From the NCBI GenBank assembly GCA_017431625.1, contig JAFRKQ010000015.1, forward strand, positions 17,608-81,607: a stretch of DNA of 64,000 nucleotides, read 5' to 3'. The stretch comes from a bacterium (lineage in GTDB: Bacteria; Patescibacteriota; Microgenomatia; UBA1400; PJMF01). The notes beneath the pieces are model-generated. The model searched no databases. It worked only from the letters and a program-made list of their open reading frames with translations, and was not told the origin of the DNA. Below, one piece after another: positions 6,089-35,451 of this stretch (position 1 is its first letter; every line of letters begins with the position of its first letter). The translations under genes were made by a program, and so were the position numbers.

Positions 6089-6523
6089 ATGTCAATTTTA
6101 AATCAGAATATCGATATCAGTAATAAGTCTAAAAAACGGCTTGGCCGTGGTTATGGTAGCGGCAAAGGCAAGACCGTTGGTCGCGGTACCAAAGGCTCGG
6201 GGGCGCGCAAAAGTCCTCACATGGCACCTATTTTTGAAGGCGGTCAGTTGCCACTCACCAAACGTTTGCCGATGATCCGTGGTAAATCGCGTTTTCAATC
6301 ATTTGCCAAAGTCGGTGAGGTCAATGTCGGTGATTTAGCCAAGCTAGACGCTGAGCTTATTAGTCTAGAAACACTCAAGCTTGCCGGTTTGGTGGATAAG
6401 CGGGTAAAAGCCGCAAAAGTGATTAACACTGGTAGCTTGGATAAAGCCGTTAAACTCCAAGGATTGCGCGTTTCGGCTGGAGCCAAAAAAGCCATTGAAG
6501 CTGCTGGCGGTAGCGTGGTTTAA
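6089..6523 (+). CDS. rplO: 50S ribosomal protein L15 (uL30 gene absent between rpsE and rplO)
   Basis: 144 aa ...KKRLGRGYGSGKGKTVGRGTKG uL15. Confidence 0.9.
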   Translation: MSILNQNIDISNKSKKRLGRGYGSGKGKTVGRGTKGSGARKSPHMAPIFEGGQLPLTKRLPMIRGKSRFQSFAKVGEVNVGDLAKLDAELISLETLKLAGLVDKRVKAAKVINTGSLDKAVKLQGLRVSAGAKKAIEAAGGSVV

Positions 6524-6543
6524 GACCTGATTGTGTGGATATT

Positions 6544-6575
6544 AAAACTCCCAACTTGATGGTTGGGAGTTTTTG
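6544..6575 (+). terminator. Rho-independent terminator ending the ribosomal protein operon
   Basis: AAAACTCCCAAC ttgatg GTTGGGAG + TTTTT. Confidence 0.75.
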
Positions 6576-6599
6576 GTGGTTGGCCAAAATGATAATTGC

Positions 6600-6608
6600 T
6601 GTTATAAT
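6600..6608 (+). promoter_or_regulatory. Extended -10 (TGtTATAAT) for leaderless rmuC
   Basis: TGnTATAAT with ATG 6615 six nt downstream. Confidence 0.5.
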
Positions 6609-6614
6609 ATGAAT

Positions 6615-7697
6615 ATGGAAATAACTATTTTGGTTTTGTTGATTTTGGTGATAGTTTTGCTGCTGCTCAATTTGCTTTTGACCTATGCTCTCAAGATGCG
6701 ACAACCGGACTTGGAAAAAACGCTTTCGCGCCAGCGCCGGGAGTTGACCCTCACACTTGAGTCTTTCGGTCAAGGCCAGGAACGTCAACTTCAGCATCTA
6801 ACAGCGATGACCGAAAAACGTCTTGAGTCCATGCGTCAAACTGTGGATGAAAAACTACAAACTTCTCTGGAACGCCGACTCAATGATTCTTTTCGCCAGG
6901 TATCTGAGCGGCTGGAAATGGTTTATAAAGGTTTGGGTGAAATGCAGACGCTGGCGGCCGGTGTCGGTGATCTCAAGAAAGTACTTACCAATGTCAAGGT
7001 CCGGGGTACGTGGGGTGAAGTCCAACTGGGCAATTTGTTGTCGCAGTTTTTGGCGCAAAGCGACTATACCGAAAACGTGGCTACCGTCCCTGGTAGTAGC
7101 AATCGGGTGGAATTTGCGATCAAACTTCCGAGCAAAAATAATGATCAAGACAATGTTTTATTACCTATTGATGCGAAATTTCCCTTAGAAGATTTTGAGC
7201 GTTTGCAATTGGCACAAGAGCAAGCTGACAAAAGTTTGATTGACATTGAGTCCAAGGCTTTGTATACGCGTTTGAAAAAATGCGCCAAAGATATTCACGA
7301 TAAGTACTTGTCGCCACCGAAGACCACAGATTTTGCGATTATGTATTTGCCGCTTGAAGGTCTGTATGCCCAAGTGAGTCAAAATGTCGCTTTGTGTCGT
7401 CAACTCCAACAAGATTATCGGGTGACTGTCATGGGACCCAATACCATTGCTGCTTTTTTGAATAGCCTTCAGTTGGGTTTTCGCACATTAACGATTGAAA
7501 AGCGCTCAGCCCAAGTGTGGCAGCTTTTGGGCGAGATCCAAACTGAGTTTGCTAAATTTGGACTCATTTTGCAAAAAACGCAAAAGAAATTGCAAGAAGC
7601 CAGCAACATCATCAGCGAGGCTCAAAGCAAATCAACCACAATTAATCGCAAACTTCAAAGTGTGGAAAATCGTGATTTACTCCAAGAGCCTGTGTAA
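6615..7697 (+). CDS. rmuC: DNA recombination protein RmuC
   Basis: N-terminal TM then coiled coil and RGTWGEVQL / IDAKFPLEDFERL motifs of the RmuC family. Confidence 0.8.
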   Translation: MEITILVLLILVIVLLLLNLLLTYALKMRQPDLEKTLSRQRRELTLTLESFGQGQERQLQHLTAMTEKRLESMRQTVDEKLQTSLERRLNDSFRQVSERLEMVYKGLGEMQTLAAGVGDLKKVLTNVKVRGTWGEVQLGNLLSQFLAQSDYTENVATVPGSSNRVEFAIKLPSKNNDQDNVLLPIDAKFPLEDFERLQLAQEQADKSLIDIESKALYTRLKKCAKDIHDKYLSPPKTTDFAIMYLPLEGLYAQVSQNVALCRQLQQDYRVTVMGPNTIAAFLNSLQLGFRTLTIEKRSAQVWQLLGEIQTEFAKFGLILQKTQKKLQEASNIISEAQSKSTTINRKLQSVENRDLLQEPV

Positions 7698-9933: not shown

Positions 9934-10554
9934 TTATTCACGGCAACAATCAAGCATTCTGTTGAGAGTTGCTCCTAATTTTTTCCAGGTACTGTCATGG
10001 TTTTTGGTTTCTTGGCTCGTGTCAGTGAGTGCTGAGGTGGCCACGGTGTCGATTTGGTCGGTATTGGTGGCCAGCTCCTCCTCTTTTTTGATGTCAGCCA
10101 GAAGGGCTTTTTTGTCTTGCTCGCTGAATTGACTACTGGTTTGGTTTTGATCAATGAGCTTGAGATTGAGCGCCCAAAAAAGATTGTAGAGATTGTAGGA
10201 CATCTCAAAAAGATGATAAGCGTGGTCTTTGTCATTGGCCATGGCTTTGGTGCCCACCTCCATCACCCGCATACTGGCGGCCAGGAGATGTTTGCTGGTA
10301 CACCAGACTTCTCCTTCATAGTCTTTGATGATTAATTTAAGCAATTCCTTGCGCATTTCACGGATTTGGGCGAGCATTTCAAAGTAACTAGTCTTGCCGG
10401 TTTTATTGGCGGTAAAAAATAAATGCTCTTCAATCGAGATTAAATTCATAATGCCAATGGACAAGTCTTCATCGGAGGAAAGATCAAGTTTGTGCCCTTT
10501 TTCGATTTTTTTGGCCTGTTCCATATACTCGTCAAGTTTTTTTTGATCAATCAT
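9934..10554 (-). CDS. Hypothetical protein (coiled-coil rich, acidic C-terminus)
   Basis: ORF with SD GAAGGA 7 nt before ATG 10554 and an extended -10 TGTGGTAAAAT upstream; no recognisable family. Confidence 0.5.
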   Translation of the reverse strand: MIDQKKLDEYMEQAKKIEKGHKLDLSSDEDLSIGIMNLISIEEHLFFTANKTGKTSYFEMLAQIREMRKELLKLIIKDYEGEVWCTSKHLLAASMRVMEVGTKAMANDKDHAYHLFEMSYNLYNLFWALNLKLIDQNQTSSQFSEQDKKALLADIKKEEELATNTDQIDTVATSALTDTSQETKNHDSTWKKLGATLNRMLDCCRE

Positions 10555-10654
10555 GGCGATCCTTCTAGTCACTTTTTTCTAATAGCTATTTTACCACACT
10601 TTTGTGACTTTTTACGTCAAAAAAAGGTGAAAATGGTTGACAAACACATTAATG

Positions 10655-12699: not shown

Positions 12700-12729
12700 T
12701 TGACAAGTGGCCGGACTATTTGTTACAAT
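12700..12729 (+). promoter_or_regulatory. Sigma70-type promoter of the pilin operon (TTGACA-18-TACAAT), leaderless
   Basis: -35 TTGACA 12700-12705, -10 TACAAT 12724-12729, ATG 12737 seven nt downstream. Confidence 0.6.
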
Positions 12730-12736
12730 GGTTTTT

Positions 12737-13399
12737 ATGAAAAAACGCACCGCGTTTACACTGGTAGAGATGATGGTTATCGTCGCAGTTTTGGGGATTT
12801 TATCCACTTTTGGTTTTGCCAGCTACAGCCGTTTTGCCCAGCGTCTGGAGGTAGAAAACGCTGCTAAAGAGTTGATTACTTTTATTCGCCAAGTACAAGG
12901 GTATGCAAGGAATGGGGATCGAGGGAATAACGCTTTGGGTTCTGGTTGTAATGCTACTGTGTTTGATATTGCTAGCGATAACAGCAAATTACTTGGTTGG
13001 CGGATTGATTTAAAAGCAAATGAAGCCAATGGCTATCCGGTTTGTTGGACGAGTTCTAGCCCGCGAGTAGCGGATGAGACAGGCGGCAAGTCGTTAGATT
13101 TAACTACAATTAATTCAAGTATTAAGTTTTATTGTTCTGGATGGAGCACTTGCAGTAGTAGTACTAATTATTTTTTTGTAAAATCTATTTTTGGTGATAC
13201 CTGGTATCAACATGAATATACTAAAGGATCAATTGATACCACTGGTGTTGGTAATAAAAACAAAATTATTGTTGTTAGCGATGGCGAATTTTATTATCGT
13301 TTCCGGTTGTCAAATGGATCCATCACTAATGGTAGTTTCTGTGAAAAAGCACACTGCTTTGACAATGATCGTACTAATAGTTTAACTGCTGATGATTAA
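12737..13399 (+). CDS. Type IV pilin / pseudopilin (prepilin-type N-terminal cleavage/methylation domain)
   Basis: MKKRTA|FTLVEMMVIVAVLGIL class III signal (A at -1, E at +5); Cys-containing variable C-terminal domain. Confidence 0.7.
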   Translation: MKKRTAFTLVEMMVIVAVLGILSTFGFASYSRFAQRLEVENAAKELITFIRQVQGYARNGDRGNNALGSGCNATVFDIASDNSKLLGWRIDLKANEANGYPVCWTSSSPRVADETGGKSLDLTTINSSIKFYCSGWSTCSSSTNYFFVKSIFGDTWYQHEYTKGSIDTTGVGNKNKIIVVSDGEFYYRFRLSNGSITNGSFCEKAHCFDNDRTNSLTADD

Positions 13400-13940
13400 T
13401 ATGCCAAAACACAATCGATACCTTCACCATTTGCCTGCCACTTCTATCATTGAGCTGATGGTCTCGGCGGCTTTAATTGGCATGGTTTTAACAGCGCTCA
13501 CACTCAACATGGCGCGGACACAGCGCACTCTGGAGAATACTTTTTTACGTTCCAAGGCTACTGATATGGCCAATAGTTGTATGAATTATTTTCGGGCTGC
13601 CAGAGATAATAATGAGTGGCCAATTTTTTGTGATAGAGTTAAGAATGTTACAGTTAATTCTACTGGTTCTCCTCTTGGCGGTAATATCAATGCTAGTTCA
13701 AGCATTTTGAATCCAATTTGTCCGCAAGGTGCGTATGCTGGATCAAATTTTTATTTAAATCTCGCTAGGAGTGGGCGTAGTGGTTGCTCTAATATAGAGT
13801 GTTTTTGTAAAGGAAATCGTGATGAAGCGTATTTTAATCTACAAGTTATTGTACATTATCAGGATGCCATTGGTGTGGACAAATCTGTTACAGTGACCGA
13901 GCGTTTCTCTCGCGGTCAGCTTGATGCTGAATATAAATAA
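13392..13940 (+). CDS. Minor pilin-like protein (degenerate prepilin N-terminus)
   Basis: ..PA|TSIIELMVSAALIGMVL with Glu at +5; Cys-rich C-terminus; alternative start ATG 13401. Confidence 0.5.
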   Translation: MINMPKHNRYLHHLPATSIIELMVSAALIGMVLTALTLNMARTQRTLENTFLRSKATDMANSCMNYFRAARDNNEWPIFCDRVKNVTVNSTGSPLGGNINASSSILNPICPQGAYAGSNFYLNLARSGRSGCSNIECFCKGNRDEAYFNLQVIVHYQDAIGVDKSVTVTERFSRGQLDAEYK

Positions 13941-14038
13941 ACTATAGTAGTGCTTGTCGCGATTGTAATGTTGCCAAATGCCAGCGATTTGTGTTATAAT
14001 GAACTTGAAAATTGACAACAATAATTGAGAAAGATAGT

Positions 14039-15475
14039 ATGGCGCAAACAGTAATGGGTAAAATAAATGATTGGGGTGGCCTAGATGAGGACGATCCCAT
14101 TATTGATAATTCGGCGCTGACAATGGAAGAGCTCACAGAAGTGTCGGTATCGGGGCTCGATGACGAACCCACAGCGGTGTCGGTTGGTGCGCCAGAGACA
14201 CCAGCGCCCGTGACTTTTCCGCATGTGCCGGCGGCAGCCACTGTGGTCTCCAGTGAACCGGTGGTATTACAACCGGTGGCAGATGAAGTACCACTGACGG
14301 CTGATAGTGCTACCACTGATTGGCAACCAGATGTGGTCCCGGCGGCGGCGACTGTTGATATGTCACCGGTGACGACCGTGACGCAGGCAGAATTGGCTGC
14401 CGCCTCAGCGATGGCAGCGGGCAGCGAGCTGCCAAATCTCAAGACGCAAGAATCAGCACCCGTGGTGGCTAGTGAGCGTGAGACAACCGAAACAGTGAAA
14501 AAGGTGTCAGCAAAAGTGGCGACTAAATCATTGCTGACCCGTTGGCGCGGCACTAAATTCAAGCCGGCCAAAGAGACTGACAAGGTGAAAAAAACGGCAC
14601 CCAAGCGCGCCCCGAAACAGTCAAAAGCTCGCACTGGAAAAAATGAATGGCAGCTGGTGACACTGGCTTTGTTGTTGGTGGTGGGGGTAGCTGGTGGGAG
14701 TTTCTGGTATCGCCGTCGCGGCGGTCAAGTGGCCGGCATCAAAAAAGAATTGGTCGCTGATTACCGTTTGGGTGCGGGTTATATTGCTACTACTGGCGTG
14801 TGTACGCCGGTTATTGACCCGAGCGTGCGTGCGAGTGTGGATGATTTTGTTTCGATTATTTCTGGTGATGGCTATATTGATGAAAGTGTTACGGGTGAGT
14901 TACGAACGCAGTTTGATTTTTTTCAGGAGCACGCTTTGGGTACAGGCGCCAGACACTGCTTTGCTTTGGAGTACTGTCATAATGATTTTGCCAATAATCT
15001 CCCCTTTGTACTTGCTTATGCTAGGCGCGCTTACGTGGATACTCATTATGGCAATGCCGGCGTGGGAGGTGTTGGCGGTCAGTGGGTAGCGGCGGGGCAA
15101 TTGCGTCAAGATGTGACTCAGCTTTTTGGTGTGAGTGAGGTTGATGTTAGCCTTTTCCCGGTCACCAATGGGACGATAAATGATGTTTACAATGCTGCCG
15201 ATGATTTATTCTTGATCCCTGCAGATGTGAATATCAGTGGACCTTATCACTATGAGCTGGAAAAAATACGGGCAAACGCCGCTACCAAGCAGCGAGTGTT
15301 TGTAGCCAAGATGGTCACTAGCGATAGCGCTTGTCAAGTAGTGATTAATGATGATCATTGCAATTGTCCGCAGACGCGTTATTATTTGGTACAAGATATT
15401 AATCCGGCTACTGGTGAGTATGTTTATACTCACGAGTATGTACAAGTTACAGGTGAGCGGCAAAAGGTAGATTGA
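14039..15475 (+). CDS. Single-pass membrane protein, paralog A of a tandem triplet (acidic disordered N-terminus, TM, 6-Cys C-terminal domain)
   Basis: TM WQLVTLALLLVVGVAGG; C-terminal motifs LEYCHNDF and CQVVINDDHCNCPQTRYYLV shared with the next two genes; alternative TTG start 14012. Confidence 0.6.
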   Translation: MAQTVMGKINDWGGLDEDDPIIDNSALTMEELTEVSVSGLDDEPTAVSVGAPETPAPVTFPHVPAAATVVSSEPVVLQPVADEVPLTADSATTDWQPDVVPAAATVDMSPVTTVTQAELAAASAMAAGSELPNLKTQESAPVVASERETTETVKKVSAKVATKSLLTRWRGTKFKPAKETDKVKKTAPKRAPKQSKARTGKNEWQLVTLALLLVVGVAGGSFWYRRRGGQVAGIKKELVADYRLGAGYIATTGVCTPVIDPSVRASVDDFVSIISGDGYIDESVTGELRTQFDFFQEHALGTGARHCFALEYCHNDFANNLPFVLAYARRAYVDTHYGNAGVGGVGGQWVAAGQLRQDVTQLFGVSEVDVSLFPVTNGTINDVYNAADDLFLIPADVNISGPYHYELEKIRANAATKQRVFVAKMVTSDSACQVVINDDHCNCPQTRYYLVQDINPATGEYVYTHEYVQVTGERQKVD

Positions 15476-15476
15476 A

Positions 15477-16604
15477 ATGTCAATACCCAAAGGCTATCCG
15501 ACGCCTCGTGTGCCTTCACCAACCAAAAGTGAAGACTGGCAAATTGGTGGACAACAAGATGCGGCGGGCAAAGTGCAGATGATTTTTGCGGGACAATCAC
15601 CAGCTTTCCCGGATTTAGTGCCCGCCAGCGAGCTGCCTGCGTCCAGCGCGTCTACTCCTACTCCACCACCGACACAGACACCGAGTCCCTCGGCGCATAA
15701 AATTCGCCGACGTCCGGACAAAATGAAAGGCCCGGGCTTTAATTGGCGAGGACTACATTGGCCATTGTATATTTCAGCGCTTGCAGTCGTGATTTTGTTG
15801 GCTCACGTACTGATGCGCTTTGCTAGTATGAGTGGCTTGCGCGATAATTTGGGTCACGAGTATCTGAATCAAGATTTGACACGTTTGGGAGCACCGCCTG
15901 TTGTTCCTTGTTTGGCTAGCGAAGAGGTGACTCTGCGTGAAAGCTTGGACGAGTTGGCGGCGACTTATGAGGCGACCTATTTTCGCGAGGAGCCAACCGT
16001 TGATGACCGAGCGCTTTTGGAGCGTTTCCTTAAACCAGCTCGAGTGGCTCAAGCGGTGGATTGTCTTGGCGGTGTCTATTGCCGGCAAGATTTTACCAAT
16101 CCGACGCTGCAAAAGTCAGTAATTCGGCATCTTTTGGCTTATGATTTGTCTTTGGTGCCAGGGCATAGTGAACCAGCCGGAACTTTTATGGTACAGCTGT
16201 ACTCGATGTTTGGTACCAAGCAAGTGGATTTGGCCACCGTACCTGATTTGGATTATCAAGCAGCTGATGAGACTTTTATTGTGCCCACACCTGTGGATGC
16301 GCCCACGCCTGCTTATGACTATACTTTGGAAGCTATTTGGATCAGTCCTAGTGAGGATGAAGCTGTATATCAAGCGCTTATGACGCCGACGCCGTCGTGT
16401 ACCTTGTCACTGCACGGCCAATGTTCTTGTCCACTGGCTCGTTACTATTTGGTTTTGCGCTATGATCCCGAAAGTGATCACTGGATGCACGCTTATCATT
16501 TTGTCCGTCGTCTTGGAGGAATTGATAATTTGCAGACTGGCGAACAAGTGACTGCGCCCGCGGCTTCAGACTCGACAAATGTTTTAGAAAGTGATAAACT
16601 ATAA
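15477..16604 (+). CDS. Single-pass membrane protein, paralog B
   Basis: TM LHWPLYISALAVVILLAHVL; CLGGVYCRQDF and CTLSLHGQCSCPLARYYLV motifs. Confidence 0.6.
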   Translation: MSIPKGYPTPRVPSPTKSEDWQIGGQQDAAGKVQMIFAGQSPAFPDLVPASELPASSASTPTPPPTQTPSPSAHKIRRRPDKMKGPGFNWRGLHWPLYISALAVVILLAHVLMRFASMSGLRDNLGHEYLNQDLTRLGAPPVVPCLASEEVTLRESLDELAATYEATYFREEPTVDDRALLERFLKPARVAQAVDCLGGVYCRQDFTNPTLQKSVIRHLLAYDLSLVPGHSEPAGTFMVQLYSMFGTKQVDLATVPDLDYQAADETFIVPTPVDAPTPAYDYTLEAIWISPSEDEAVYQALMTPTPSCTLSLHGQCSCPLARYYLVLRYDPESDHWMHAYHFVRRLGGIDNLQTGEQVTAPAASDSTNVLESDKL

Positions 16605-16630
16605 AAACAAAATTGCAAAGAAAGTAGCTT

Positions 16631-18253
16631 ATGCCAACAACCAATATTAATAATAGTCCTAATGCCAATTTGTCCACGCCTACTCCTATCGTGCCGGCGG
16701 GTTCTGCCCCCCAACCAGCAGCACCTGTGGGTGAGATTCCGACGCTCAATCCGGCACTGGTGAGTACTGGTCTACCCACTTTGGGTCAAAGTCTTTTGAT
16801 CTCTACCACTCCTCCACCCGCTGCCCCCACGCCGGCCCCTGCCGCTGCATTGAGTCAAACACTACCAACTACTGCGCCTGTTGTCCCGCCTTCATCGCCA
16901 GCTCCAGTGGCTACCCCTACTCCTTCTACTCCACTAGTCCCGCCAGCTCCCGCACCGGCGCCAGCTAGTCCAATTGCCCCCACCCCAACACCAGCGACAG
17001 TACCCACTCATCCGGTAGGTCTGGCCACACCTTCTGTGGGTACGCCACCGACCGCGGCACCACCAGCAACGGCTTCTGTTCCTACGCCGGGATTGCCACC
17101 AACACCAACACCAACACCGATGTCTGTACCAGCAGTGTCTTCAACACCAGCTCCCGCACCGGCGCCAGCTGCTACTCCCGCTCCAGTAGGCCCAGTCTCG
17201 GCTCCTAGTGTGCCGCCTATGCCAGGAACTGGTACAGGTACTAATACCTCGGGGAGTGTGCCGCCAGTGATCCCTTCAGTAGCACCCACCGCTCCTGGTG
17301 CTGAGCCCAAGCCAGTAACTCCTATTGCAGAAACGCCAGCCGCTAAGCCCGAGAAGAAAACTGATCTGACGATGATTATTTTGGCGGTCGTTTTGGTGAT
17401 TCTTGTAGTGGTCGCGGGTGTGTTGTGGTGGATGAATGCCAATGGCAAAAGTCTTTTTGGTGGTCAGGTGGCAACGGTGGTCACTCCTGAGCCTGTGGTC
17501 GCGCCTATTACTACCCCAGAGCCGGTCGCTGACGCTTCACCCGGTGGCTCGCGTGAGGAATTGGTGGCGATTGATGTCGATGATCTTTGTTATGTCAATC
17601 CCGACTCTTTGGGCCAACAAAAAGATGTGGAAGAGTTTGTCACTTGGGTCAATAATTATTTTACTGACGATTTGGAAAACAGTGAGTATTACCAAAATCT
17701 TTTTAACTATTATATGGAACGAGCCATCATGGCACCACCACTTTGTGACTCACATCAGTTGTATTGCCGCGCTGCTTTCAGTGAGCGGCCAGATTTTGTG
17801 GCTCAGTTTAGTCATTTTGGTGAACAATGGGAGCGACAAACTACCGAGTCAAAAACGCTCACGGGCCAGTCAATTCGCGATCGGGCGTTGATTGATTTTA
17901 ATATGCCTGATTTGGTCTTGGATGAGAATACTGGTCGTGGCAGTCTAGCTGGTAATGGCTGGAAATACAATGCCGATCAAGATATATTGCTTTCTTTTGG
18001 TGAGTATACTTTGCCCCAGCAAGATTACACTTATCGGTTTGTTAAGGGTATGCAATTGGCGGCTACCCAAGAAGTGGTGCTGATCGGACAAGGGGTGGCA
18101 ACACAAAATTGCAAGGAGGAAAATAACTGTGTTTGCGAAGCTTCACAAATATATTTGTATTTACAAAAAGGGCCAACCGGCGAGCTTTATTATTCTAATC
18201 TCTTTATTGAGCCATTGGTAGGCAAAACTGCTGAGGTAGATGCTGATTTATAA
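16631..18253 (+). CDS. Single-pass membrane protein, paralog C (240-aa Pro/Ala/Thr-rich N-terminus)
   Basis: TM LTMIILAVVLVILVVVAGVLWW; LCDSHQLYCRAAF and NCKEENNCVCEASQIYLYL motifs. Confidence 0.6.
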   Translation: MPTTNINNSPNANLSTPTPIVPAGSAPQPAAPVGEIPTLNPALVSTGLPTLGQSLLISTTPPPAAPTPAPAAALSQTLPTTAPVVPPSSPAPVATPTPSTPLVPPAPAPAPASPIAPTPTPATVPTHPVGLATPSVGTPPTAAPPATASVPTPGLPPTPTPTPMSVPAVSSTPAPAPAPAATPAPVGPVSAPSVPPMPGTGTGTNTSGSVPPVIPSVAPTAPGAEPKPVTPIAETPAAKPEKKTDLTMIILAVVLVILVVVAGVLWWMNANGKSLFGGQVATVVTPEPVVAPITTPEPVADASPGGSREELVAIDVDDLCYVNPDSLGQQKDVEEFVTWVNNYFTDDLENSEYYQNLFNYYMERAIMAPPLCDSHQLYCRAAFSERPDFVAQFSHFGEQWERQTTESKTLTGQSIRDRALIDFNMPDLVLDENTGRGSLAGNGWKYNADQDILLSFGEYTLPQQDYTYRFVKGMQLAATQEVVLIGQGVATQNCKEENNCVCEASQIYLYLQKGPTGELYYSNLFIEPLVGKTAEVDADL

Positions 18254-18306
18254 AGAATTGGATCGCAAGAAAAATATCGCTACCTTAAGTGGCGATATTT
18301 TTTTGC

Positions 18307-18384
18307 TTACCGAAACACTCGCGACTGCCGAGCTGTGCACACAGCTGTGCAGTCGTGTGCGGAGCTCCGCGCGGAGCTCCGCAC
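18307..18384. repeat. GC-rich palindromic element (family Z), full copy; bidirectional terminator between convergent genes
   Basis: TTACCGAAACACTC...GCTGTGCACACAGC...GTGCGGAGCTCCGCGCGGAGCTCCGCAC. Confidence 0.65.
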
Positions 18385-21084: not shown

Positions 21085-21582
21085 TTATTGCTCAGGAGCA
21101 TTGATCGTTCCGGTCAAAACTACCTGTTCATCATGACGAATCTCAATGGTGATCGGCAGCTGAGCTTTGGGGAGTGAGTCACTAATAAGCAGTCCGCCTT
21201 TGTTTAATTCTAGGCTGCCAAGGTCACGCCAAGTGTCGTCCTCAGCGGTTTTGACAAAAGCGTGATAGACTTCCTCGCTATCAGTGGGGAGATTGGCATT
21301 GACGGAAAAAAGTACCTGATCGCCTTGGAATTGATAGCGGACTTCACCGTGAGCATTTTGACCAGTAGCATTAAGATTGACGGCTTCGTAATCACCAATG
21401 CCACGGCGCAAGTTTTCGAGGGCTTCACGATTGGCATCTTTGAGTGGTACAATAGGCGCACTTGAGGCAACTTCAGGAGTTTGTAAATCGCTGACTTCGC
21501 GGGAACGATACCAACGCATGCCCAAAAAGGCCACCAGTGCTAGTGCCACAATGGGTAAAATAATCGGTAAATACTTTTTCAT
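21085..21582 (-). CDS. Hypothetical membrane-anchored protein (N-terminal signal anchor)
   Basis: MKKYLPIILPIVALALVAFLG then soluble domain; conserved TTGTCAAGAGGCAATT promoter motif upstream. Confidence 0.5.
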   Translation of the reverse strand: MKKYLPIILPIVALALVAFLGMRWYRSREVSDLQTPEVASSAPIVPLKDANREALENLRRGIGDYEAVNLNATGQNAHGEVRYQFQGDQVLFSVNANLPTDSEEVYHAFVKTAEDDTWRDLGSLELNKGGLLISDSLPKAQLPITIEIRHDEQVVLTGTINAPEQ

Positions 21583-23200: not shown

Positions 23201-24061
23201 ATGCTGATTGTCATGCACATCAAACCGGATTTGGATGCGATTGCCAGTTCGTGGCTTTTGGTGCGCTTTGACAGCCAACACTATGCGGGTAGTCGTCTGG
23301 CTTTTACGCCCGCGGGGACCACTCTTGATCCAGCGAAAGTGGCAGCTTTGGGCTATCGGCCTGATCAGGTCACTCACGTGGACACTGGCAAAGGGCGTTT
23401 TGATCATCATGTGCCTGAGCGGGCGGGTCCACAGTATTCGGCGACTTCGCTGGTTTATGATTATTTGCTCGAAATTCACCCGGAGTATCGTACTGATAGT
23501 GCTTTGCGCGAAATCGTCAGTATCGTCACGGAAATTGATCACTTTGGGGAAGTCTACTGGCCTGATGCCAATAATCCTCGTTATGAGTTTATGCTCCACC
23601 AAATTATCGATGCGATGGATGCGACGCCTACCCATGATGATTCTTATCAAGCGCAGTTGGGTCATCGTTTGCTGGATTTTGTCTATGCCAGTATGAAATT
23701 GCATCTCAAAGCCACCGAGAAACTGGGTGAGGGCATCACTTTTCCTCTCAAGACTGGCGGTGAGGCTTTTGCGATTTTAACGGGCAGTGAAGAGATTTTG
23801 AGCGTGGCCCAAAAAGCGGGTTATTTGTTGGTGGTCAAAAAAGATAAATATTCTGGACATATCAGGATCAAAGCGCGCCCAGATGCGCCGTTTAATCTCG
23901 ACGCGGTCTATAAGTTGGTTACAGCCGCTGATACAGTGGGTACTTGGTACTATCACCCCAGTGGTAAGATGCTTTTGAATGGTTCGCGCAAAAGTGGCAC
24001 TCATGTGCCCTCACCTTTGAGTTTGGATGAGGTGGTGGCCATGATCAAAAAAGTGCTCTAA
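23201..24061 (+). CDS. DHH-family phosphoesterase (NrnA-like)
   Basis: HIKPDLDAIAS and GKGRFDHH motifs; leaderless TGTATAAT-8nt-ATG. Confidence 0.6.
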   Translation: MLIVMHIKPDLDAIASSWLLVRFDSQHYAGSRLAFTPAGTTLDPAKVAALGYRPDQVTHVDTGKGRFDHHVPERAGPQYSATSLVYDYLLEIHPEYRTDSALREIVSIVTEIDHFGEVYWPDANNPRYEFMLHQIIDAMDATPTHDDSYQAQLGHRLLDFVYASMKLHLKATEKLGEGITFPLKTGGEAFAILTGSEEILSVAQKAGYLLVVKKDKYSGHIRIKARPDAPFNLDAVYKLVTAADTVGTWYYHPSGKMLLNGSRKSGTHVPSPLSLDEVVAMIKKVL

Positions 24062-29115: not shown

Positions 29116-29409
29116 GTGACTTATTATACACTAAAATTGACAAAAATGGCACTAGTCTTGTTTGATCTTGTGCGGATATAAAAATATCGGTTACTGACAT
29201 TTAGACTTATAAAATTAAACGAGACTGATAAAATTGCCTGTAAAAATCCCATAAGTTTTGATTTAAACAATTGATATTAATATCTAAAAATTATTAACTA
29301 ACGCTAATATTGGGGCTTGCACTTTTGTCGGTTTTGTATTATAATAGGGGCGTTTGGGTAACCAGACGAAAAGCGAAAATAGAATTTGAGAAGAAATATT
29401 AAGGGCGAT

Positions 29410-31632
29410 ATGTTAAAAAATAATAAACTGCTTTACATTTTACCAGAAATGTCTTTCACAGCAACCGTGGGTGAAACGCCAAAACAGGACTATTATTTTG
29501 TCCAAACATTTCACCAAATTAACGGTGAGTTTATGCGCGATGAGAACTTTATTCACGAAAGCCTCAAAAAGTTGTTTGAGCGTGTGGAAGAAGCGCAATA
29601 TACTTTGGTATTGCCAGATTTTCTTTTTACAGATACTATTGTTAATGTACCCGAAACAGACGATGTCAAAATAGCTCAGTATTTGCGTGATCAATTGTTA
29701 CCACGCATTGAAGTCTCAACATTTTCGCACGAGACACGCACGTCGGTACTACTTCAGCGTAAAACTACGGCTAAAGTGCAGCTGTCGGCTTTTGAAAAGG
29801 AGCTGGCGGCTTCGTTGAAATTAGCCATTGGCAGTCGTGACATCACCATTGATGAAATTGTGCCTTTGTCATGGGCGCTCAAAGCAGCTGTCAGTCTTGA
29901 ACCCTCGCTCACTATTGCCCAAGTTGGTGAACGGTTATATTTGGCTGAACACTATATCGGTATTAATCAGACGATTAGTACCCCGATTAATGATTTGGAC
30001 GTGCTAGCGGAGTCGGTACGGACTTTGAAAGGCTCTGATCCTAATTTGCAAACCACTTATCTTTTCACCTCACAACTGGTGGAAGAAAAACTCAAGAAGT
30101 TCTTACTCAAGACTTTGCCGGTACAGCAGCTGACAGAGCCCATCGAAGAAGAAGCAAAAATTCCCCCATATGTCAAGCAAATTATTGAAGTGACTGCTAG
30201 AACTTTGAGTCTGTCGGATTTTGCTGTGCCTCGTTTCACTCTCCAGGCTGACGATCTTTTGGGTCAGATTCCCGCTTTGCCGGTCACCCAAGCAGAAGAA
30301 ACAACTGAGACAAAAGTCGAACCCGAAACAAGCGTGGAGTCCATTGATAATCATGATAATCAATCAACGAAGGAGCAAGCGGCCGAGGTGGCAGCTGTAG
30401 CGACAGCGGTGGCTCGCAGTTTGGACTTGGAGACGGCTAGTGACGCCGCGCTAGCATCACCAACAGCAAAACAATCTCAGTCGCCAGCAGACTCGACAAC
30501 GTCAGCAGCAAAATCAGCAGTAGCCTTGGACTCGGAAAAAGAAACTCCTCAACAAGCTTCGGAGTCCGAGGTCAGCGAGCCGGCTCAACCGGCGGCAGCC
30601 GAGCAAGCAAGTGAAGTGCCGGCGACGACAGCAACACCACCACAAGTGGCAACGGCTAGTCTCAATCGCGAGCCAACGCTGACGCAAGCAGCGGTGAGCG
30701 CAGAGTCAGTCGCAGTTGATGCCAAATCAGAAGCGTCATCATCTACGTCTCAGGCAGAGGTTACGGCACAAGCGTCACCGGTTTTGGTAGAGTCAGCGCC
30801 AGCGATTGCTGCTAAGCCGGAGACACCCGCTCTGGCGTCAGCATCAACACCGGCTCAACTCAAACAACCAGAAACGCCAGTCTTAAGTCAACCAGCGAAA
30901 GTGGAACAATTGCCTAGCAATGAGGCGATGCCGCGTTTGAGTTTCATGTCTCCCAAGCAAACTGCAACTAGCGAAACTATATCAGCGACTAATAACCCCA
31001 GTTCTCAGGATACTGAAGCGACCAAAAACGATAAAACTAGTGCAAAAAATGACAAAAAAGATGATAAAATATCAGCTAGTAAGCAATCGACGAGCAAGAA
31101 GAAAGGAAGCATGTCTTCATTTATAAAAAAATTACTGTTGTTTTTGTTGATTTTTGTGATTGTCATCGCTATCGGTATTGGTGTTGGGGTGTTAATCTTA
31201 TCCATGACCGATAAAGATTTTTTCAAGCGTGACGATTTACCAGAACCAGAGATGTCAGCTTTGCCCACGCCTGAGCCAGAAGAAGTGCCAGTACCCGAGG
31301 AATCTTCACCTGAAGCGGAAATTGTTGAGGAAGAAGAAGAAATTGATCCGGCTGAGTTTTCACTTAAAGTGGTTAATGCCACTGGGGTTGCTGGATTGGC
31401 TGGCAAGGCCAAAACTGCTCTTGAATCAGCAGGTTTTAGTGGCGTGCAAACCGGCAATGCTGCTGGTGAATATGAGACAGAAGGCACTTTTGTCTTGATG
31501 AAGGAAAAAAATTCGGCACTGATTAAGGCTTTGGAACAAGCTACCGGGCGGACGATGAATTACGATGAGGATGTAGACGTGGAAGACAAGGCTGGTAGCT
31601 TTGACGCGGTCATTGTCCTTAATGAGGAATAA
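29410..31632 (+). CDS. Membrane protein with cytoplasmic N-terminal domain, ~290-aa Ser/Ala/Thr/Glu-rich linker, TM helix and C-terminal LytR_C domain
   Basis: TM LLLFLLIFVIVIAIGIGVGVLIL; C-terminus FSLKVVNATGVAGLAGKAKTALESAGFSGVQTGNA...DAVIVLNE matches LytR_C; ATG 29410 with SD AAGGG. Confidence 0.6.
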   Translation: MLKNNKLLYILPEMSFTATVGETPKQDYYFVQTFHQINGEFMRDENFIHESLKKLFERVEEAQYTLVLPDFLFTDTIVNVPETDDVKIAQYLRDQLLPRIEVSTFSHETRTSVLLQRKTTAKVQLSAFEKELAASLKLAIGSRDITIDEIVPLSWALKAAVSLEPSLTIAQVGERLYLAEHYIGINQTISTPINDLDVLAESVRTLKGSDPNLQTTYLFTSQLVEEKLKKFLLKTLPVQQLTEPIEEEAKIPPYVKQIIEVTARTLSLSDFAVPRFTLQADDLLGQIPALPVTQAEETTETKVEPETSVESIDNHDNQSTKEQAAEVAAVATAVARSLDLETASDAALASPTAKQSQSPADSTTSAAKSAVALDSEKETPQQASESEVSEPAQPAAAEQASEVPATTATPPQVATASLNREPTLTQAAVSAESVAVDAKSEASSSTSQAEVTAQASPVLVESAPAIAAKPETPALASASTPAQLKQPETPVLSQPAKVEQLPSNEAMPRLSFMSPKQTATSETISATNNPSSQDTEATKNDKTSAKNDKKDDKISASKQSTSKKKGSMSSFIKKLLLFLLIFVIVIAIGIGVGVLILSMTDKDFFKRDDLPEPEMSALPTPEPEEVPVPEESSPEAEIVEEEEEIDPAEFSLKVVNATGVAGLAGKAKTALESAGFSGVQTGNAAGEYETEGTFVLMKEKNSALIKALEQATGRTMNYDEDVDVEDKAGSFDAVIVLNEE

Positions 31633-32642: not shown

Positions 32643-33476
32643 ATGTCAACAATCATTTTATTTTTGAGTTTTTGGTTGGTCGCTTTTGGGTCGCGAGTAG
32701 AGGCTCAACAAGCATCGACAGTCTCAGCGCAAATGGAAGATAGCGAAGGTTTGGGAGCGGTGGGCGGCACTTCATCTTCGGATAATTTTATTATGACTTT
32801 GGGTGTCAATCAAGGCGATGATTCTAGTGATGACGACCTTAGTCAGACGTTGTCACTGCTTTCTCCGGCCAGTTATCGTCAGCTTTTGACGAGCAGCGGT
32901 GGACTTTATGGTGATAGCTTCGCCAGTGGTGAGGCGACTGGTATTAATACCGATATTCAGTTTAGTATTGACAAACTTTGGGTTGATTTCCCTTACATGT
33001 CACCAGGCATCTTGGCTACGGGTCAAAATGAACTGATAATTAACTCGAACGCCCCGATCGGCTATTCACTTTACACCGGCGAGGATTTACCACTGCATTT
33101 GCCGGAGATGGAGCAGAGACTTTTGGTGGATGGGCTTGCGGTTTATCCACGGGAAATCATTGCTGCGACCACTTGTGATGCCGGCGATTGCGATGATCAG
33201 ACGGCTGGTACTTGGGTTAATGGCGAAATTGCTGGTTTTGGTTATACTGTCATGGGTGATGACGCTTTGGCTGATTTTGCCGGTGGACAAAAGTATCGTG
33301 CCTTTAGTGATCTCAAACTGGGACAGCCAGCGCGACTGATCGCTACCAAAGATGCTTCTAGTCAGGCGCTGTCGCAGCGTCAACTCACTGTCCGCTATCA
33401 AGTGGGTGTCCGCGGTGATACTGAGGCAGGAGTGTTTCAAAACAGCGTTTATTATACATTAGTTCCAAATTATTAA
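32643..33476 (+). CDS. Secreted acidic protein (signal peptide), unknown function
   Basis: MSTIILFLSFWLVAFGSRVEA signal peptide; beta-rich. Confidence 0.5.
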   Translation: MSTIILFLSFWLVAFGSRVEAQQASTVSAQMEDSEGLGAVGGTSSSDNFIMTLGVNQGDDSSDDDLSQTLSLLSPASYRQLLTSSGGLYGDSFASGEATGINTDIQFSIDKLWVDFPYMSPGILATGQNELIINSNAPIGYSLYTGEDLPLHLPEMEQRLLVDGLAVYPREIIAATTCDAGDCDDQTAGTWVNGEIAGFGYTVMGDDALADFAGGQKYRAFSDLKLGQPARLIATKDASSQALSQRQLTVRYQVGVRGDTEAGVFQNSVYYTLVPNY

Positions 33477-33477
33477 C

Positions 33478-34491
33478 ATGTCAATTCTCTCTCGAGGTCA
33501 AAAACAAATCATTGTCTGGATGTGTGCTTGGTTTCTGACAGCAGTAGGTGCAGTGCAAGCGGTTGATTTGACAGTCTCACCAGCACAAAACTACATTCAA
33601 ATAGATGGTGGCGAGGAGCAGATTTTGGATTATATCTTGAGTAATGAAGACGTCGATGATTTGCAGGTGAGTCTGTCAGCGATGAGCTTTGCCACAGGTG
33701 ATCTCGATGGCAAACCTATTTTGAGTGCTCGCTTAGATTTTCCCTATTTATCGTTATTGTCTGCAGGTGAAACAGTGGATACCATCACCCTGGCGGCCGG
33801 CTCCAGTCAAACGGTCCAGGTGAAGGTAGCACCTCCTTTGGGAACTCCAGTCAAGGAATATCCGTTGGTGTTACTTTTTGAAGCACGGGTGGCGACTCCA
33901 GATGATCAAGTGGGTAGCGGCGTAGGTATGCAAGTGGGTTCGAATTTAATTGTCCGCCTTGATCACAGCAATGAAGACAAAAGTGATTTGTCAATTGCAC
34001 TGGTGGACAATTGGCATGGTTTAGTGGACACTTTTGGCCGAACAAGCCAACAAGTGCTGGTACGCAATCGAGGCAGCTTCGGCACATTAATCAATGGCGA
34101 GGTGACTCTTCGGCGCGGACAACAAGAGGTAGCTCATTGGGATTTTTACCCGGACTTGGTTTTGGGGGAAAGTGAGCGTCTGGCGCGAGTGAGTGATGGT
34201 AGTATTGATGGTAATGGCAATATTTCTTTGAGTTCATCACTTGATTTACCGCCATTTTTGTTGGGGCATTATACTCTTGAAGCCCGAGTGCACAGTATTA
34301 AAGCTAGTCGTGACATGGGCTCGACAGTAACAGTCAGCTTTATTGCTCTTCCCTATTGGCTTTTGACTCTATTGGTGGTGATTGCAGTTTTGGTAATTAT
34401 TACCGCGAAAGTGTCGCGCCCCAAAACCAAAAAACAACAACTTCAGAAACGTCTTGCACAAATGAAACGACAAAAAGAATTTTTTGAGTAA
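33478..34491 (+). CDS. Cell-surface protein with signal peptide and C-terminal TM anchor plus basic tail
   Basis: N-terminal signal peptide, C-terminal LPYWLLTLLVVIAVLVIITAKVSRPKTKK; start 2 nt after preceding stop. Confidence 0.5.
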   Translation: MSILSRGQKQIIVWMCAWFLTAVGAVQAVDLTVSPAQNYIQIDGGEEQILDYILSNEDVDDLQVSLSAMSFATGDLDGKPILSARLDFPYLSLLSAGETVDTITLAAGSSQTVQVKVAPPLGTPVKEYPLVLLFEARVATPDDQVGSGVGMQVGSNLIVRLDHSNEDKSDLSIALVDNWHGLVDTFGRTSQQVLVRNRGSFGTLINGEVTLRRGQQEVAHWDFYPDLVLGESERLARVSDGSIDGNGNISLSSSLDLPPFLLGHYTLEARVHSIKASRDMGSTVTVSFIALPYWLLTLLVVIAVLVIITAKVSRPKTKKQQLQKRLAQMKRQKEFFE

Positions 34492-35263: not shown

Positions 35264-35406
35264 ACCAATTTGTTCCTTGTTTGTTTTTTCCTAAGGGTCA
35301 TATTATATCACAAAAAATATAAATTTCGGGGGGCAATTTTATCAAAATGTGTAATTGGTCGAGCTTGATAAAACGACCGGTGTTTTTCCCGCCTGGAAAC
35401 CAGACA

Positions 35407-35444
35407 AATTGCCTCTTGTCAAAAATGATCTTTTTTGGTATAAT
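35407..35444 (+). promoter_or_regulatory. Promoter AATTGCCTC-TTGTCA-17-TGgTATAAT, leaderless (ATG 35452)
   Basis: -35 35416-35421, -10 35439-35444, 7-nt gap to ATG. Confidence 0.6.
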
Positions 35445-35451
35445 TGAGGTA

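What the first reader, a model, noticed from the sequence alone, without database searches (positions are those of the whole stretch)
12700..18253. Operon of two type IV pilin-like genes followed by a tandem triplet of paralogous single-pass membrane proteins with a shared 6-Cys ectodomain
A strong leaderless promoter (TTGACA-18-TACAAT) drives a prepilin-type pilin (12737-13399) and a degenerate minor pilin (13392-13940). Three consecutive genes follow with the same architecture: a long disordered N-terminus (acidic in A, basic and Pro-rich in B, 240 aa of PAPAPT repeats in C), a basic juxtamembrane patch, one TM helix, and a ~230 aa C-terminal domain. The C-terminal domains share ordered motifs: an early Cys; then C-x4-YC-x2-DF (LEYCHNDF / VYCRQDF / LYCRAAF); then C-x-C-P/E-x3-YYL (CNCPQTRYYLV / CSCPLARYYLV / CVCEASQIYLYL); then P-x-T/S-G-E/D. 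Six conserved Cys suggest a disulfide-bonded extracytoplasmic fold. I do not recognise this domain. Its linkage to pilins in a putative episymbiotic CPR organism makes it a candidate pilus-associated adhesin or sensor module. The Pro-rich region of C also contains a near-exact nucleotide duplication (CCAGCTCCCGCACCGGCGCCAGCT at ~16945 and ~17148), which implies recent internal expansion. The operon ends at a GC palindrome at 18357-18384.
Basis: partly seen in the sequence, partly recalled or inferred. Interest (0 to 1): 0.75.

Follow-up and report, generated by a model that had tools for sequence, protein, structure and literature searches.

The report
Undescribed six-cysteine membrane protein triplet
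Three neighbouring genes in a Patescibacteria-type genome encode single-pass membrane proteins that share a six-cysteine outer domain absent from the domain and structure libraries searched; the family is real, rare and new, but its tie to the two pilin genes beside it is not conserved, and its function is only inferred.

Summary

The operon and pilus interpretation is only partly supported. Gene A has its own near-consensus extended -10 promoter, conserved in relatives. In more distant genomes the module follows rplO plus a terminator, with no pilins. The conserved neighbour is tyrS. No pilus machinery is in the window.

Best reading: an N-in/C-out envelope protein family with a membrane-proximal, disulfide-stapled, non-enzymatic ectodomain. 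Its tails are likely cytoplasmic and carry short docking motifs. It probably acts as a transmembrane scaffold or sensor.

The parts
12700..12729 (+). Promoter-like site TTGACA-18-TACAAT, 7 nt before ATG 12737 (leaderless layout) for the pilin genes
   Evidence: 11/12 match. The same layout is conserved in L003.
12737..13399 (+). Pilin1: type IV prepilin-like protein (MKKRTA|FTLVEM), with 6 Cys in its globular part
   Evidence: PF07963 at 25.9 bits against a 21.2 cut-off. TIGR02532 at its cut-off, and N-terminal matches to GspH/PpdD/ComGD models. Cys count. 47% identical to its ortholog in L003.
13392..13940 (+). Pilin2: degenerate pilin-like protein (LPA|TSIIE, hydrophobic helix, 6 Cys). It overlaps pilin1 by 8 nt.
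   Evidence: PF07963 scores only 9.6 bits, below the cut-off. Glu+5 and the helix are conserved in the L003 ortholog.
13971..14000 (+). Separate promoter-like site for A-B-C: TTGCCA-18-(TGT)TATAAT, extended -10, about 38 nt before ATG 14039
   Evidence: 11/12 plus TG. Equivalent sites lie upstream of the family genes in L003, L006 and L007.
14039..15475 (+). Gene A (478 aa): acidic tail starting with the motif MAxV.G.IND(F/W)GG..DDPIIDN, a basic patch, a TM helix, and a 6-Cys domain
   Evidence: AF2 model of residues 225-478, pLDDT 85.2.
15477..16604 (+). Gene B (375 aa): basic, Pro-rich tail with the motif PRVPSPTK.EDWQIGGQQD..GKV..IFAGQ.P, a TM helix, and a 6-Cys domain. It starts 1 nt after the stop of A.
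16631..18253 (+). Gene C (540 aa): 245-aa Pro/Ala/Thr tail with the motif P.(V/I)IPSVAP.APGAE.KP, a TM helix followed by WWMN..GKS, a Pro-rich linker, and a 6-Cys domain
16943..17170 (+). Exact 24-nt direct repeat (16943-16966 and 17147-17170) inside the Pro/Ala-rich tail of C
18267..18304 (.). Intrinsic-terminator-like hairpin (A-tract, 9-bp stem 18275-18297, U-tract), plausibly bidirectional between C and the convergent tyrS
   Evidence: dG -22.3 kcal/mol, z -5.9
18357..18384 (.). Perfect 14+14 GC-rich palindrome in the C/tyrS intergenic region
   Evidence: dG -29, z -3.9

Best explanation
A, B and C belong to a small, previously undescribed family of single-pass membrane proteins. I infer an N-in/C-out topology. 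The family appears confined to a narrow clade of Patescibacteria, probably from ruminant or other gut samples.

The three genes form their own tightly packed transcription unit with its own promoter. That unit happens to lie downstream of a two-gene pilin cassette in this lineage.

Each protein places a ~230-aa alpha/beta domain just outside the cytoplasmic membrane. The domain is probably held by three disulfides. It has a helical N-terminal half and a cystatin/NTF2-like C-terminal half.

Each protein also keeps a long disordered tail in the cytoplasm. The only conserved parts of the tails are short, clade-specific linear motifs.

The most likely mode of action is non-enzymatic transmembrane coupling. 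The ectodomain would bind an envelope or extracellular ligand or partner. The A-, B- and C-type tail motifs would each dock a different cytoplasmic partner, or the paralogs would co-assemble.

Shown here: the gene structure, paralogy, family size, Cys pattern, promoters, synteny and predicted fold. Inferred: the topology, the disulfides, the binding or scaffold role, and any partner.
For: Architecture and Cys pattern:
- The architecture is conserved in every full-length family member: a tail of 40-300 aa, one TM helix, then the domain.
- Nearly all have exactly 6 Cys after the TM helix and none in the tail. The exceptions are P0006 (one tail Cys) and P0020 (four ectodomain Cys).
- P0020 lacks the first and fourth Cys together and has CxxC in place of CxC. 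This is the pattern expected for paired disulfide cysteines.

Topology:
- There is no N-terminal signal peptide.
- A has 14 K/R in the 40 residues before its TM helix.
- The K/R count in the flanks favours the N-terminal side in most members.
- Both neighbouring pilins, which are extracytoplasmic by nature, also carry 6 Cys each. This suggests that disulfide-rich exported proteins are normal here.

No sign of an enzyme: the only invariant or near-invariant columns are Cys, Phe, Tyr and Leu. No conserved His, Asp, Glu, Ser or Lys is present.

Old, maintained paralogs: A, B and C form three separate orthologous clades. Each has its own conserved tail motif.

Independent unit:
- The promoter is conserved in four genomes.
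- The A stop and B start are 1 nt apart, B and C are 26 nt apart, and a terminator follows C.
- The module occurs without pilins in L006 and L007.

Surface-like evolutionary rate: against L003, the ectodomains are 42-49% identical and the pilins 40-47%. Cytoplasmic neighbours are 62-81% identical.
Against: - No partner, ligand or phenotype is known.
- Topology and disulfides are inferred, not measured. I could not inspect the model coordinates, so the Cys pairing is unverified.
- The K/R bias is ambiguous in several members (A 4 vs 5 in 15-residue flanks, P0006 3 vs 4, P0007 2 vs 4).
- B is missing from the L003 locus, and the tandem number varies from 1 to 3 across loci. An obligate A-B-C complex is therefore not universal.
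- Adjacency to pilins in two genomes, with no terminator in between, leaves a functional pilus link open.
- The fold matches are too weak to assign a superfamily.
Confidence: 0.45

Rival explanations
1. Pilus-accessory module. A, B and C would be lineage-specific inner-membrane components of a type IV filament. They would act like PilN/PilO or GspL/GspM, or as membrane receptors that work with the two pilins, and would be co-transcribed with them.
For: - They lie directly downstream of the pilin pair on the same strand in the window and in L003.
- No terminator-like structure lies between pilin2 and A.
- Like PilN/PilO, they are paralogous bitopic proteins with N-terminal cytoplasmic motifs (comparison from general knowledge).
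- They evolve at the same rate as the pilins.
Against: - The linkage is absent in L006, L007, L009, L011 and L012.
- The module has its own conserved promoter.
- No pilus ATPase, platform or peptidase gene is in the 64-kb window.
- There is no Pfam hit to PilN, PilO or GspL/M at E <= 1.
- The structural neighbours are not PilO/PilN/GspM-type chains.
Confidence: 0.15
2. Host-facing surface proteins. The ectodomains would act as adhesins towards a host bacterium, or as membrane-anchored cystatin-like protease inhibitors that protect the epibiont.
For: - The ectodomains evolve fast, like surface proteins.
- The domain is Cys-rich and probably disulfide-stabilised.
- The family is narrow and lineage-specific.
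Against: - The ectodomain starts only about 25-55 residues after the TM helix. It would therefore sit next to the membrane, under any wall or S-layer (inference).
- The near-consensus promoter and the fixed position between rplO and tyrS look like a core gene, not an accessory one.
- From memory, the cystatin QxVxG hairpin-loop motif has no counterpart. The similar-looking (Q/E)xV(F/L)(V/I)(A/G) stretch lies within a predicted strand.
Confidence: 0.15
3. Division or elongation scaffold. The proteins would be clade-specific counterparts of bitopic divisome or elongasome proteins such as FtsN, ZipA or ARC6/PARC6. The tail motifs would bind cytoskeletal proteins, and the ectodomain would bind envelope partners. 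This is a specific sub-case of the best explanation.
For: - The layout has the same logic: a short N-terminal docking motif, a disordered linker, a TM helix and an outer globular domain.
- The genomic setting and promoter look like those of a housekeeping gene.
Against: - The family is detectable in only about 17 representative clusters out of 1.84 billion.
- There is no linkage to dcw or mre genes in any locus seen.
- The PARC6 hits score no better than the cystatin hits, and there is no sequence match to any Pfam family.
Confidence: 0.12
4. Reversed topology. The Pro/Ala/Thr-rich tails would be extracellular wall-spanning linkers, and the 6-Cys domain a cytoplasmic metal-binding (Zn or Fe-S) module.
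For: - Pro/Thr/Ala-rich segments are common extracellular linkers (general knowledge).
- The CxC motif plus four more Cys could ligate metal.
- The K/R bias is ambiguous in some members.
Against: - No signal peptide precedes tails of up to about 300 aa, and export of such N-tails is not expected (general knowledge).
- The strong basic patch lies on the N-terminal side in A.
- Two Cys are lost together in P0020 while the CxC spacing changes to CxxC. This fits disulfide pairs better than a metal site.
Confidence: 0.05

Closest known systems
Type IV pilins / pseudopilins (Pfam PF07963 N_methyl; TIGR02532). This applies to the two upstream genes only.
   Same: Pilin1 has a short basic leader, a cleavage-site-like A|F, Glu+5 and a ~20-aa hydrophobic helix, and it passes the Pfam cut-off. 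Pilin2 keeps the helix and Glu+5.
   Different: Position -1 is Ala rather than the usual Gly. Pilin2 fails the HMM threshold. The globular parts match no named pilin family. No assembly genes are nearby.
PilN/PilO and GspL/GspM: paralogous bitopic alignment proteins of type IV filament machines
   Same: They are tandem paralogous single-pass proteins, N-in/C-out, with a conserved cytoplasmic N-terminal peptide. In two genomes they are encoded next to pilin genes.
   Different: There is no sequence match. The tails are much longer. The outer domain is a 230-aa 6-Cys domain whose structural neighbours are cystatin/NTF2-like chains, not the ferredoxin-like PilO/GspM fold (the fold class of PilO is from memory). 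The genes are not linked to pilM or pilB/pilC.
Cystatin / NTF2-like alpha+beta roll superfolds. Bitopic examples include VirB8, TraM and OrfG of type IV secretion systems.
   Different: Only about 85-105 of 254 residues align, at 4-15% identity. Foldseek finds nothing at E <= 1e-3. The N-terminal helical half and the six-Cys pattern have no counterpart.
ARC6/PARC6 (CDP1) intermembrane-space domain of plastid division proteins
   Different: There is no sequence similarity and no Pfam match. The organisms are unrelated. The score is no better than for cystatins.
PilY1 / PilC-type non-pilin adhesins encoded within minor-pilin operons
   Same: A non-pilin gene, or several, follows minor-pilin-like genes.
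   Different: From general knowledge, PilY1-type proteins are secreted and ride on the pilus. A, B and C keep a TM anchor and long tails inferred to be cytoplasmic, and the linkage is not conserved.

Membership tests
Type IV pilin (pilin1, 12737-13399) | N-terminal class III signal: a basic leader, a cleavage site, Phe+1, Glu+5 and a hydrophobic helix (PF07963 / TIGR02532) | tested here: met
   PF07963 E 6.9e-6, 25.9 bits against a 21.2 cut-off. TIGR02532 16.3 bits, equal to its cut-off. Sequence MKKRTA|FTLVEMMVIVAVLGIL. Position -1 is Ala, not Gly.
Type IV pilin (pilin1, 12737-13399) | A prepilin peptidase and an assembly ATPase/platform are present to process and assemble it | tested here: not met
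   No PilB/C/D/M/T-type Pfam hit among about 45 larger ORFs of the 64-kb window. The rest of the genome could not be examined, so this applies only to the window.
Type IV pilin (pilin2, 13392-13940) | N-terminal methylation/cleavage motif passing the family model | tested here: not met
   PF07963 scores 9.6 bits against a 21.2 cut-off. GspH E 0.057. By eye, LPA|TSIIE followed by a hydrophobic helix is conserved in L003. It is pilin-like but not a demonstrated member.
PilN / PilO / GspL / GspM alignment proteins (A, B, C) | Sequence match to the family models | tested here: not met
   No such Pfam or NCBIfam hit at E <= 1 for A, B, C or any of the 19 family ectodomains.
PilN / PilO / GspL / GspM alignment proteins (A, B, C) | Encoded with pilM/pilB/pilC-type machinery, with conserved linkage to pilus genes | tested here: not met
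   No machinery genes are in the window. Pilins are absent upstream in L006, L007, L009, L011 and L012.
Cystatin / NTF2-like superfold (ectodomain) | Significant structural superposition of the whole domain | tested here: inconclusive
Cystatin protease inhibitors | QxVxG hairpin-loop and PW motifs (recalled from memory) | tested here: not met
   No such conserved motifs appear in the 19-sequence alignment. The (Q/E)xV(F/L)(V/I)(A/G) stretch lies within predicted strand 194-203.
ARC6/PARC6 outer domain | Sequence or strong structural match to the intermembrane-space domain | tested here: not met
Disulfide-bonded extracytoplasmic domain (general class) | Domain located outside the membrane with oxidised, paired Cys | not testable with these tools
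   Indirect support only: an even, invariant Cys count; co-loss of two Cys in P0020; basic residues on the N-terminal side; no signal peptide.

The most novel reading that the evidence does not exclude
The 6-Cys domain is a new fold-level module. The A/B/C clades, plus the dispersed fourth clade, would form a clade-specific transmembrane complex. That complex would couple what happens at the cell surface (pilus activity or contact with a host) to cytoplasmic partners through the three distinct tail motifs. It would be a new kind of envelope signalling or attachment device in gut Patescibacteria.
Probability: 0.15. Interest if true: 0.7.

Novelty: new variant of a known kind. Interest (0 to 1): 0.42.

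Why it matters
Patescibacteria have tiny genomes, and much of their envelope biology is encoded by proteins with no known relatives.

This is a clean example. It is a well-delimited, confidently modelled domain that is absent from Pfam, NCBIfam and the PDB. It has been kept as three to four old paralogs, each with its own cytoplasmic docking motif, behind near-consensus promoters in a core-genome position.

If the ectodomain binds an envelope or host ligand, the family would be a handle on how these organisms sense or organise their surface. The narrow distribution and the lack of any functional data limit the immediate impact.

The work also corrects a tempting guilt-by-association call: the pilin neighbourhood is lineage-specific.

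Tried and rejected
- Word-indexed homolog searches returned only 2-3 proteins and missed even B and C. The exhaustive HMMER scan was needed. Two of its hits (P0018, P0019) are repetitive, unrelated proteins and were discarded.
- The first AF2 run, on 4 sequences, was poor (pLDDT 60) and was not used.
- The afdb50 and afdb_sample fold libraries were unavailable.
- The BFVD search gave one borderline hit: A0A8S5UB97, probability 0.99 but TM 0.42 and E 6.5e-3. I could not fetch that sequence. A tblastn search of GenBank phages found nothing meaningful.
- GTDB species genomes yielded only the one known relative.
- IMG/VR and JGI metagenome scans, using peptide patterns and a CxCPxARYYLV DNA pattern, gave no true hits. 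The JGI scan failed to return a JGI contig that does carry the motif (L016). These negatives are therefore not exhaustive.
- A profile search of PDB sequences found nothing.
- A hairpin between pilin2 and A was looked for and not found.
- The 230-aa antisense ORF at 13942-14634 was set aside as a by-product of the biased composition of A's tail. This was a judgement, not a test.
- The link between the sample label 'XIEF21-1' and the ruminant gut catalogue (PMC8199421) could not be confirmed from the paper text. The habitat is an inference.

Full report
**1. What is in the sequence**

Five same-strand ORFs occupy 12737-18253.

Pilin1 (12737-13399) begins MKKRTA|FTLVEMMVIVAVLGIL. It passes Pfam PF07963 at 25.9 bits against a 21.2 cut-off and reaches the TIGR02532 cut-off. 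Its first ~60 residues also match several pseudopilin models (GspH, PpdD, ComGD).

TTGACA (12700) with an 18-nt spacer and TACAAT (12724-12729) ends 7 nt before ATG 12737. The closest related genome has the same arrangement: TTGACA-18-TAGAAT-6 nt-ATG. The leaderless layout is therefore conserved rather than a chance match.

Pilin2 (13392-13940) overlaps pilin1 by 8 nt. It is sub-threshold for the pilin model (9.6 bits). It keeps a hydrophobic helix and a Glu five residues after a plausible cleavage site, and so does its ortholog.

**2. The triplet**

Orthologs begin MA(D/Q)V..., so A starts at ATG 14039 rather than TTG 14012. B starts 1 nt after the stop of A, and C starts 26 nt after B.

Each protein has one hydrophobic segment and six Cys, all downstream of it. 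The tails have these compositions:

| Tail | Length | pI | Notable composition |
|---|---|---|---|
| A | 205 aa | 4.8 | 14 K/R in the last 40 residues |
| B | 96 aa | 10.1 | 19% Pro |
| C | 245 aa | 5.6 | 29% Pro, 16% Ala, 16% Thr |

Pairwise comparisons give:
- A-B: BLASTP 6e-21 over 295 aa.
- A-C: 1e-5 over the C-terminal 97 aa.
- B-C: not significant alone.

A profile of the family, which includes A, B and C among its 19 sequences, scores all three at 1e-63 to 1e-82 and hits nothing else in the six-frame translation of the window.

The 24-nt repeat is exact at 16943 and 17147 but extends no further.

**3. How big is the family**

Word-indexed searches were nearly blind to the family. An exhaustive HMMER search of 1.84 billion cluster representatives found 20 proteins at E <= 1e-3. 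About 17 of them are genuine, and three of those are A's ortholog, B and C themselves.

All full-length relatives share the plan of tail, TM helix and domain. Sixteen of the 17 full-length sequences have exactly six Cys after the TM helix. The tails contain no Cys, apart from one in P0006.

The exception is P0020. It lacks the first and fourth Cys together and has CxxC instead of CxC. That is the behaviour expected of disulfide partners. I infer local pairing of Cys2-Cys3, with Cys1 and Cys4 each pairing with one Cys of the CxC. I could not check this, because the model coordinates are not exposed.

In the 19-sequence alignment the invariant or near-invariant columns are only Cys, Phe, Tyr and Leu. 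There is no candidate catalytic residue.

Neighbour-joining on the ectodomains gives three clean clades: A, B and C. Each contains the window protein plus three orthologs from other assemblies. There is also a fourth clade (P0016/P0021) and several singletons.

Each clade has its own conserved tail motif:
- A: MAxV.G.IND(F/W)GG..DDPIIDN at the extreme N-terminus.
- B: PRVPSPTK.EDWQIGGQQD..GKV..IFAGQ.P.
- C: P.(V/I)IPSVAP.APGAE.KP, just before the TM helix.

The rest of the tails barely align, even at 47% ectodomain identity.

**4. Known families and fold**

- No Pfam or NCBIfam model matches A, B or C at E <= 1 in any meaningful or consistent way. None of the 19 ectodomains shares a Pfam hit.
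- A profile search of all PDB sequences is empty.
- AF2 on the 19-sequence alignment gives pLDDT 85.2 and pTM 0.83. Only the first 22 linker residues are disordered.
- The model has a four-helix alpha/beta N-terminal half followed by a six- to seven-stranded antiparallel sheet.
- Foldseek against PDB has no hit at E <= 1e-3.
- BFVD gives one borderline uncharacterised phage-labelled protein. I could not follow it up. A tblastn search of phage genomes was negative.

The domain is therefore new at the family level. At best it is remotely related to the cystatin/NTF2 type of helix-on-sheet fold in its C-terminal half.

**5. Genomic context: the key test of the pilus idea**

The window matches an ENA metagenome scaffold (L001). 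The nearest genome, GCA_045541795.1, is titled Patescibacteria group bacterium.

| Locus | Gene order |
|---|---|
| Window / L001 | RmuC / Metallophos / GPDH / hyp / RecQ, then pilin1-pilin2-A-B-C, then convergent tyrS |
| L003 (GCA_045541795.1) | same flanking genes, pilin1-pilin2-A-C-tyrS; no B |
| L005 | A-B-C-tyrS, upstream cut |
| L016 | (A)-B-C-tyrS, upstream cut |
| L006 | rplO, terminator, then an A-type and a B-type gene |
| L007 / L008 (another assembly) | whole S10-spc ribosomal operon ending in rplO, a terminator, two family genes, convergent tyrS; no pilins |
| L009 | behind an SLFN/AlbA_2 gene |
| L011 | divergent from tyrS |
| L012 (fourth clade, same MAG as L003) | between the L33 gene and an alpha/beta hydrolase |

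Of the seven loci where the upstream gene is visible, two have pilins. Those two are the closest relatives of each other. The conserved neighbour is tyrS.

Gene A also has its own promoter-like site: TTGCCA-18-(TGT)TATAAT at 13971-14000. It scores 11/12, equal to the pilin promoter. Matching extended -10 sites precede the family genes in L003, L006 and L007.

No hairpin lies between pilin2 and A (z +1.2), so read-through cannot be excluded.

Downstream of C there is a strong A-tract/stem/U-tract terminator at 18267-18304 (dG -22.3, z -5.9).

Pfam scans of about 45 larger ORFs across the window found ribosomal, tRNA-synthetase, Suf, glycosyltransferase, Lon, pyruvate kinase and other housekeeping genes. 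No pilus ATPase, platform, PilM or prepilin peptidase was found.

**6. Rates of change**

Identity between the window and L003:

| Proteins | Identity |
|---|---|
| Cytoplasmic neighbours | 62-81% |
| Pilins | 40-47% |
| A and C ectodomains | 42-49% |

The ectodomains therefore change as fast as proteins known to be exposed. This fits an extracytoplasmic location but does not tie them to pili.

**7. Mechanism**

I commit to the following, at about 0.45 confidence.
- The proteins are N-in/C-out bitopic proteins. There is no signal peptide, and the basic residues lie mostly on the N-terminal side.
- The six invariant Cys form three disulfides.
- The ectodomain begins about 25-55 residues after the TM helix. 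It therefore sits against the outer face of the membrane and cannot be carried on a pilus or reach far beyond the wall.
- With no conserved catalytic residues, it is a binding or structural module.
- The likely cytoplasmic tails are spacers that present short, clade-specific docking motifs.
- Three maintained clades with three different motifs argue for non-redundant roles. Either they form a mixed complex, or one type of outer domain is wired to three inner partners.

This is the working logic of bitopic scaffolds and sensors such as FtsN, ZipA, ARC6/PARC6, VirB8 or PilN/PilO. It does not amount to membership of any of those families.

The rivals are scored in the report sections: pilus accessory 0.15, host-facing adhesin or inhibitor 0.15, division scaffold 0.12 and reversed topology 0.05.

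**8. Verdict**

The new 6-Cys family and the paralogous triplet are real. The single operon and the pilus association are not supported by comparative evidence.

Novelty: this is an undescribed, very narrowly distributed domain family within an ordinary class of protein (bitopic envelope proteins). Interest is moderate at 0.42.

Caveats:
- All function is inferred.
- The family census depends on one profile search.
- The pattern scans of metagenomes are demonstrably incomplete.
- The ruminant-gut origin is my inference from sample labels. The paper text did not confirm it.

Noticed in passing
window 40357-41661 (-): A 434-aa protein matches the Pfam ALK/LTK glycine-rich domain (PF12810) at E 2.3e-41 over residues 134-421. 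This is an unexpected strong match for a bacterial genome of this kind.
   Followed up: no
window 6089-7697; L006 3135-3703; L007 9448-10001: The ribosomal spc operon ends at rplO and is not followed by secY. In the window RmuC follows. In two relatives the 6-Cys family genes follow directly after a terminator.
   Followed up: partly
window 12737-13940: Both pilin-like proteins carry exactly six Cys, like each of A, B and C. This suggests heavy use of extracytoplasmic disulfides. No Dsb/VKOR-type gene was looked for.
   Followed up: no
window 14012-14040: A further promoter-like site (TTGACA-17-TAGTAT, 10/12) overlaps the start of gene A. Its relevance is unknown.
   Followed up: no
L012 10001-11059 (GCA_045541795.1, contig JAZQJV010000019): A fourth-clade paralog (P0021; P0016 is similar) sits at an unrelated locus, after the HU and L33 genes and before an alpha/beta hydrolase, in the same MAG that carries the pilin-A-C locus.
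   Followed up: partly
L011 3126-3878: The gene downstream of family member P0020 is another bitopic protein, with a Ser/Thr/Pro-rich tail and a TM helix. The visible part of its outer region does not match the family profile. The contig is cut.
   Followed up: no
model m8a7174de9774 vs BFVD: The top Foldseek hit is A0A8S5UB97, an uncharacterised 410-aa protein labelled Caudovirales sp. ctcT39. Probability 0.99, E 6.5e-3, 210 aligned columns, TM 0.42. It could be a distant homolog or a mislabelled contig.
   Followed up: partly
window 13942-14634 (-): A 230-aa antisense ORF overlaps the low-complexity tail of gene A. I judged it a compositional artefact but did not test that.
   Followed up: no
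window 23201-24061, 32643-33476, 33478-34491, 35347-37233 (+), 21085-21582 and 9934-10572 (-): Several sizeable ORFs have no Pfam match. The 212-aa ORF at 9934-10572 is 73% identical to its counterpart in the relative L003.
   Followed up: no
window 29386-31632 (+): A 748-aa protein whose only Pfam match is a C-terminal LytR_C domain (E 5e-8). The first ~650 residues are unassigned.
   Followed up: no
Metagenome-contig scan vs L016: The JGI contig Ga0307249_10238376 carries two exact matches to the CxCPxARYYLV DNA pattern, but the metagenome-contig scan did not return it. Negative results from that scan are therefore not exhaustive.
   Followed up: yes
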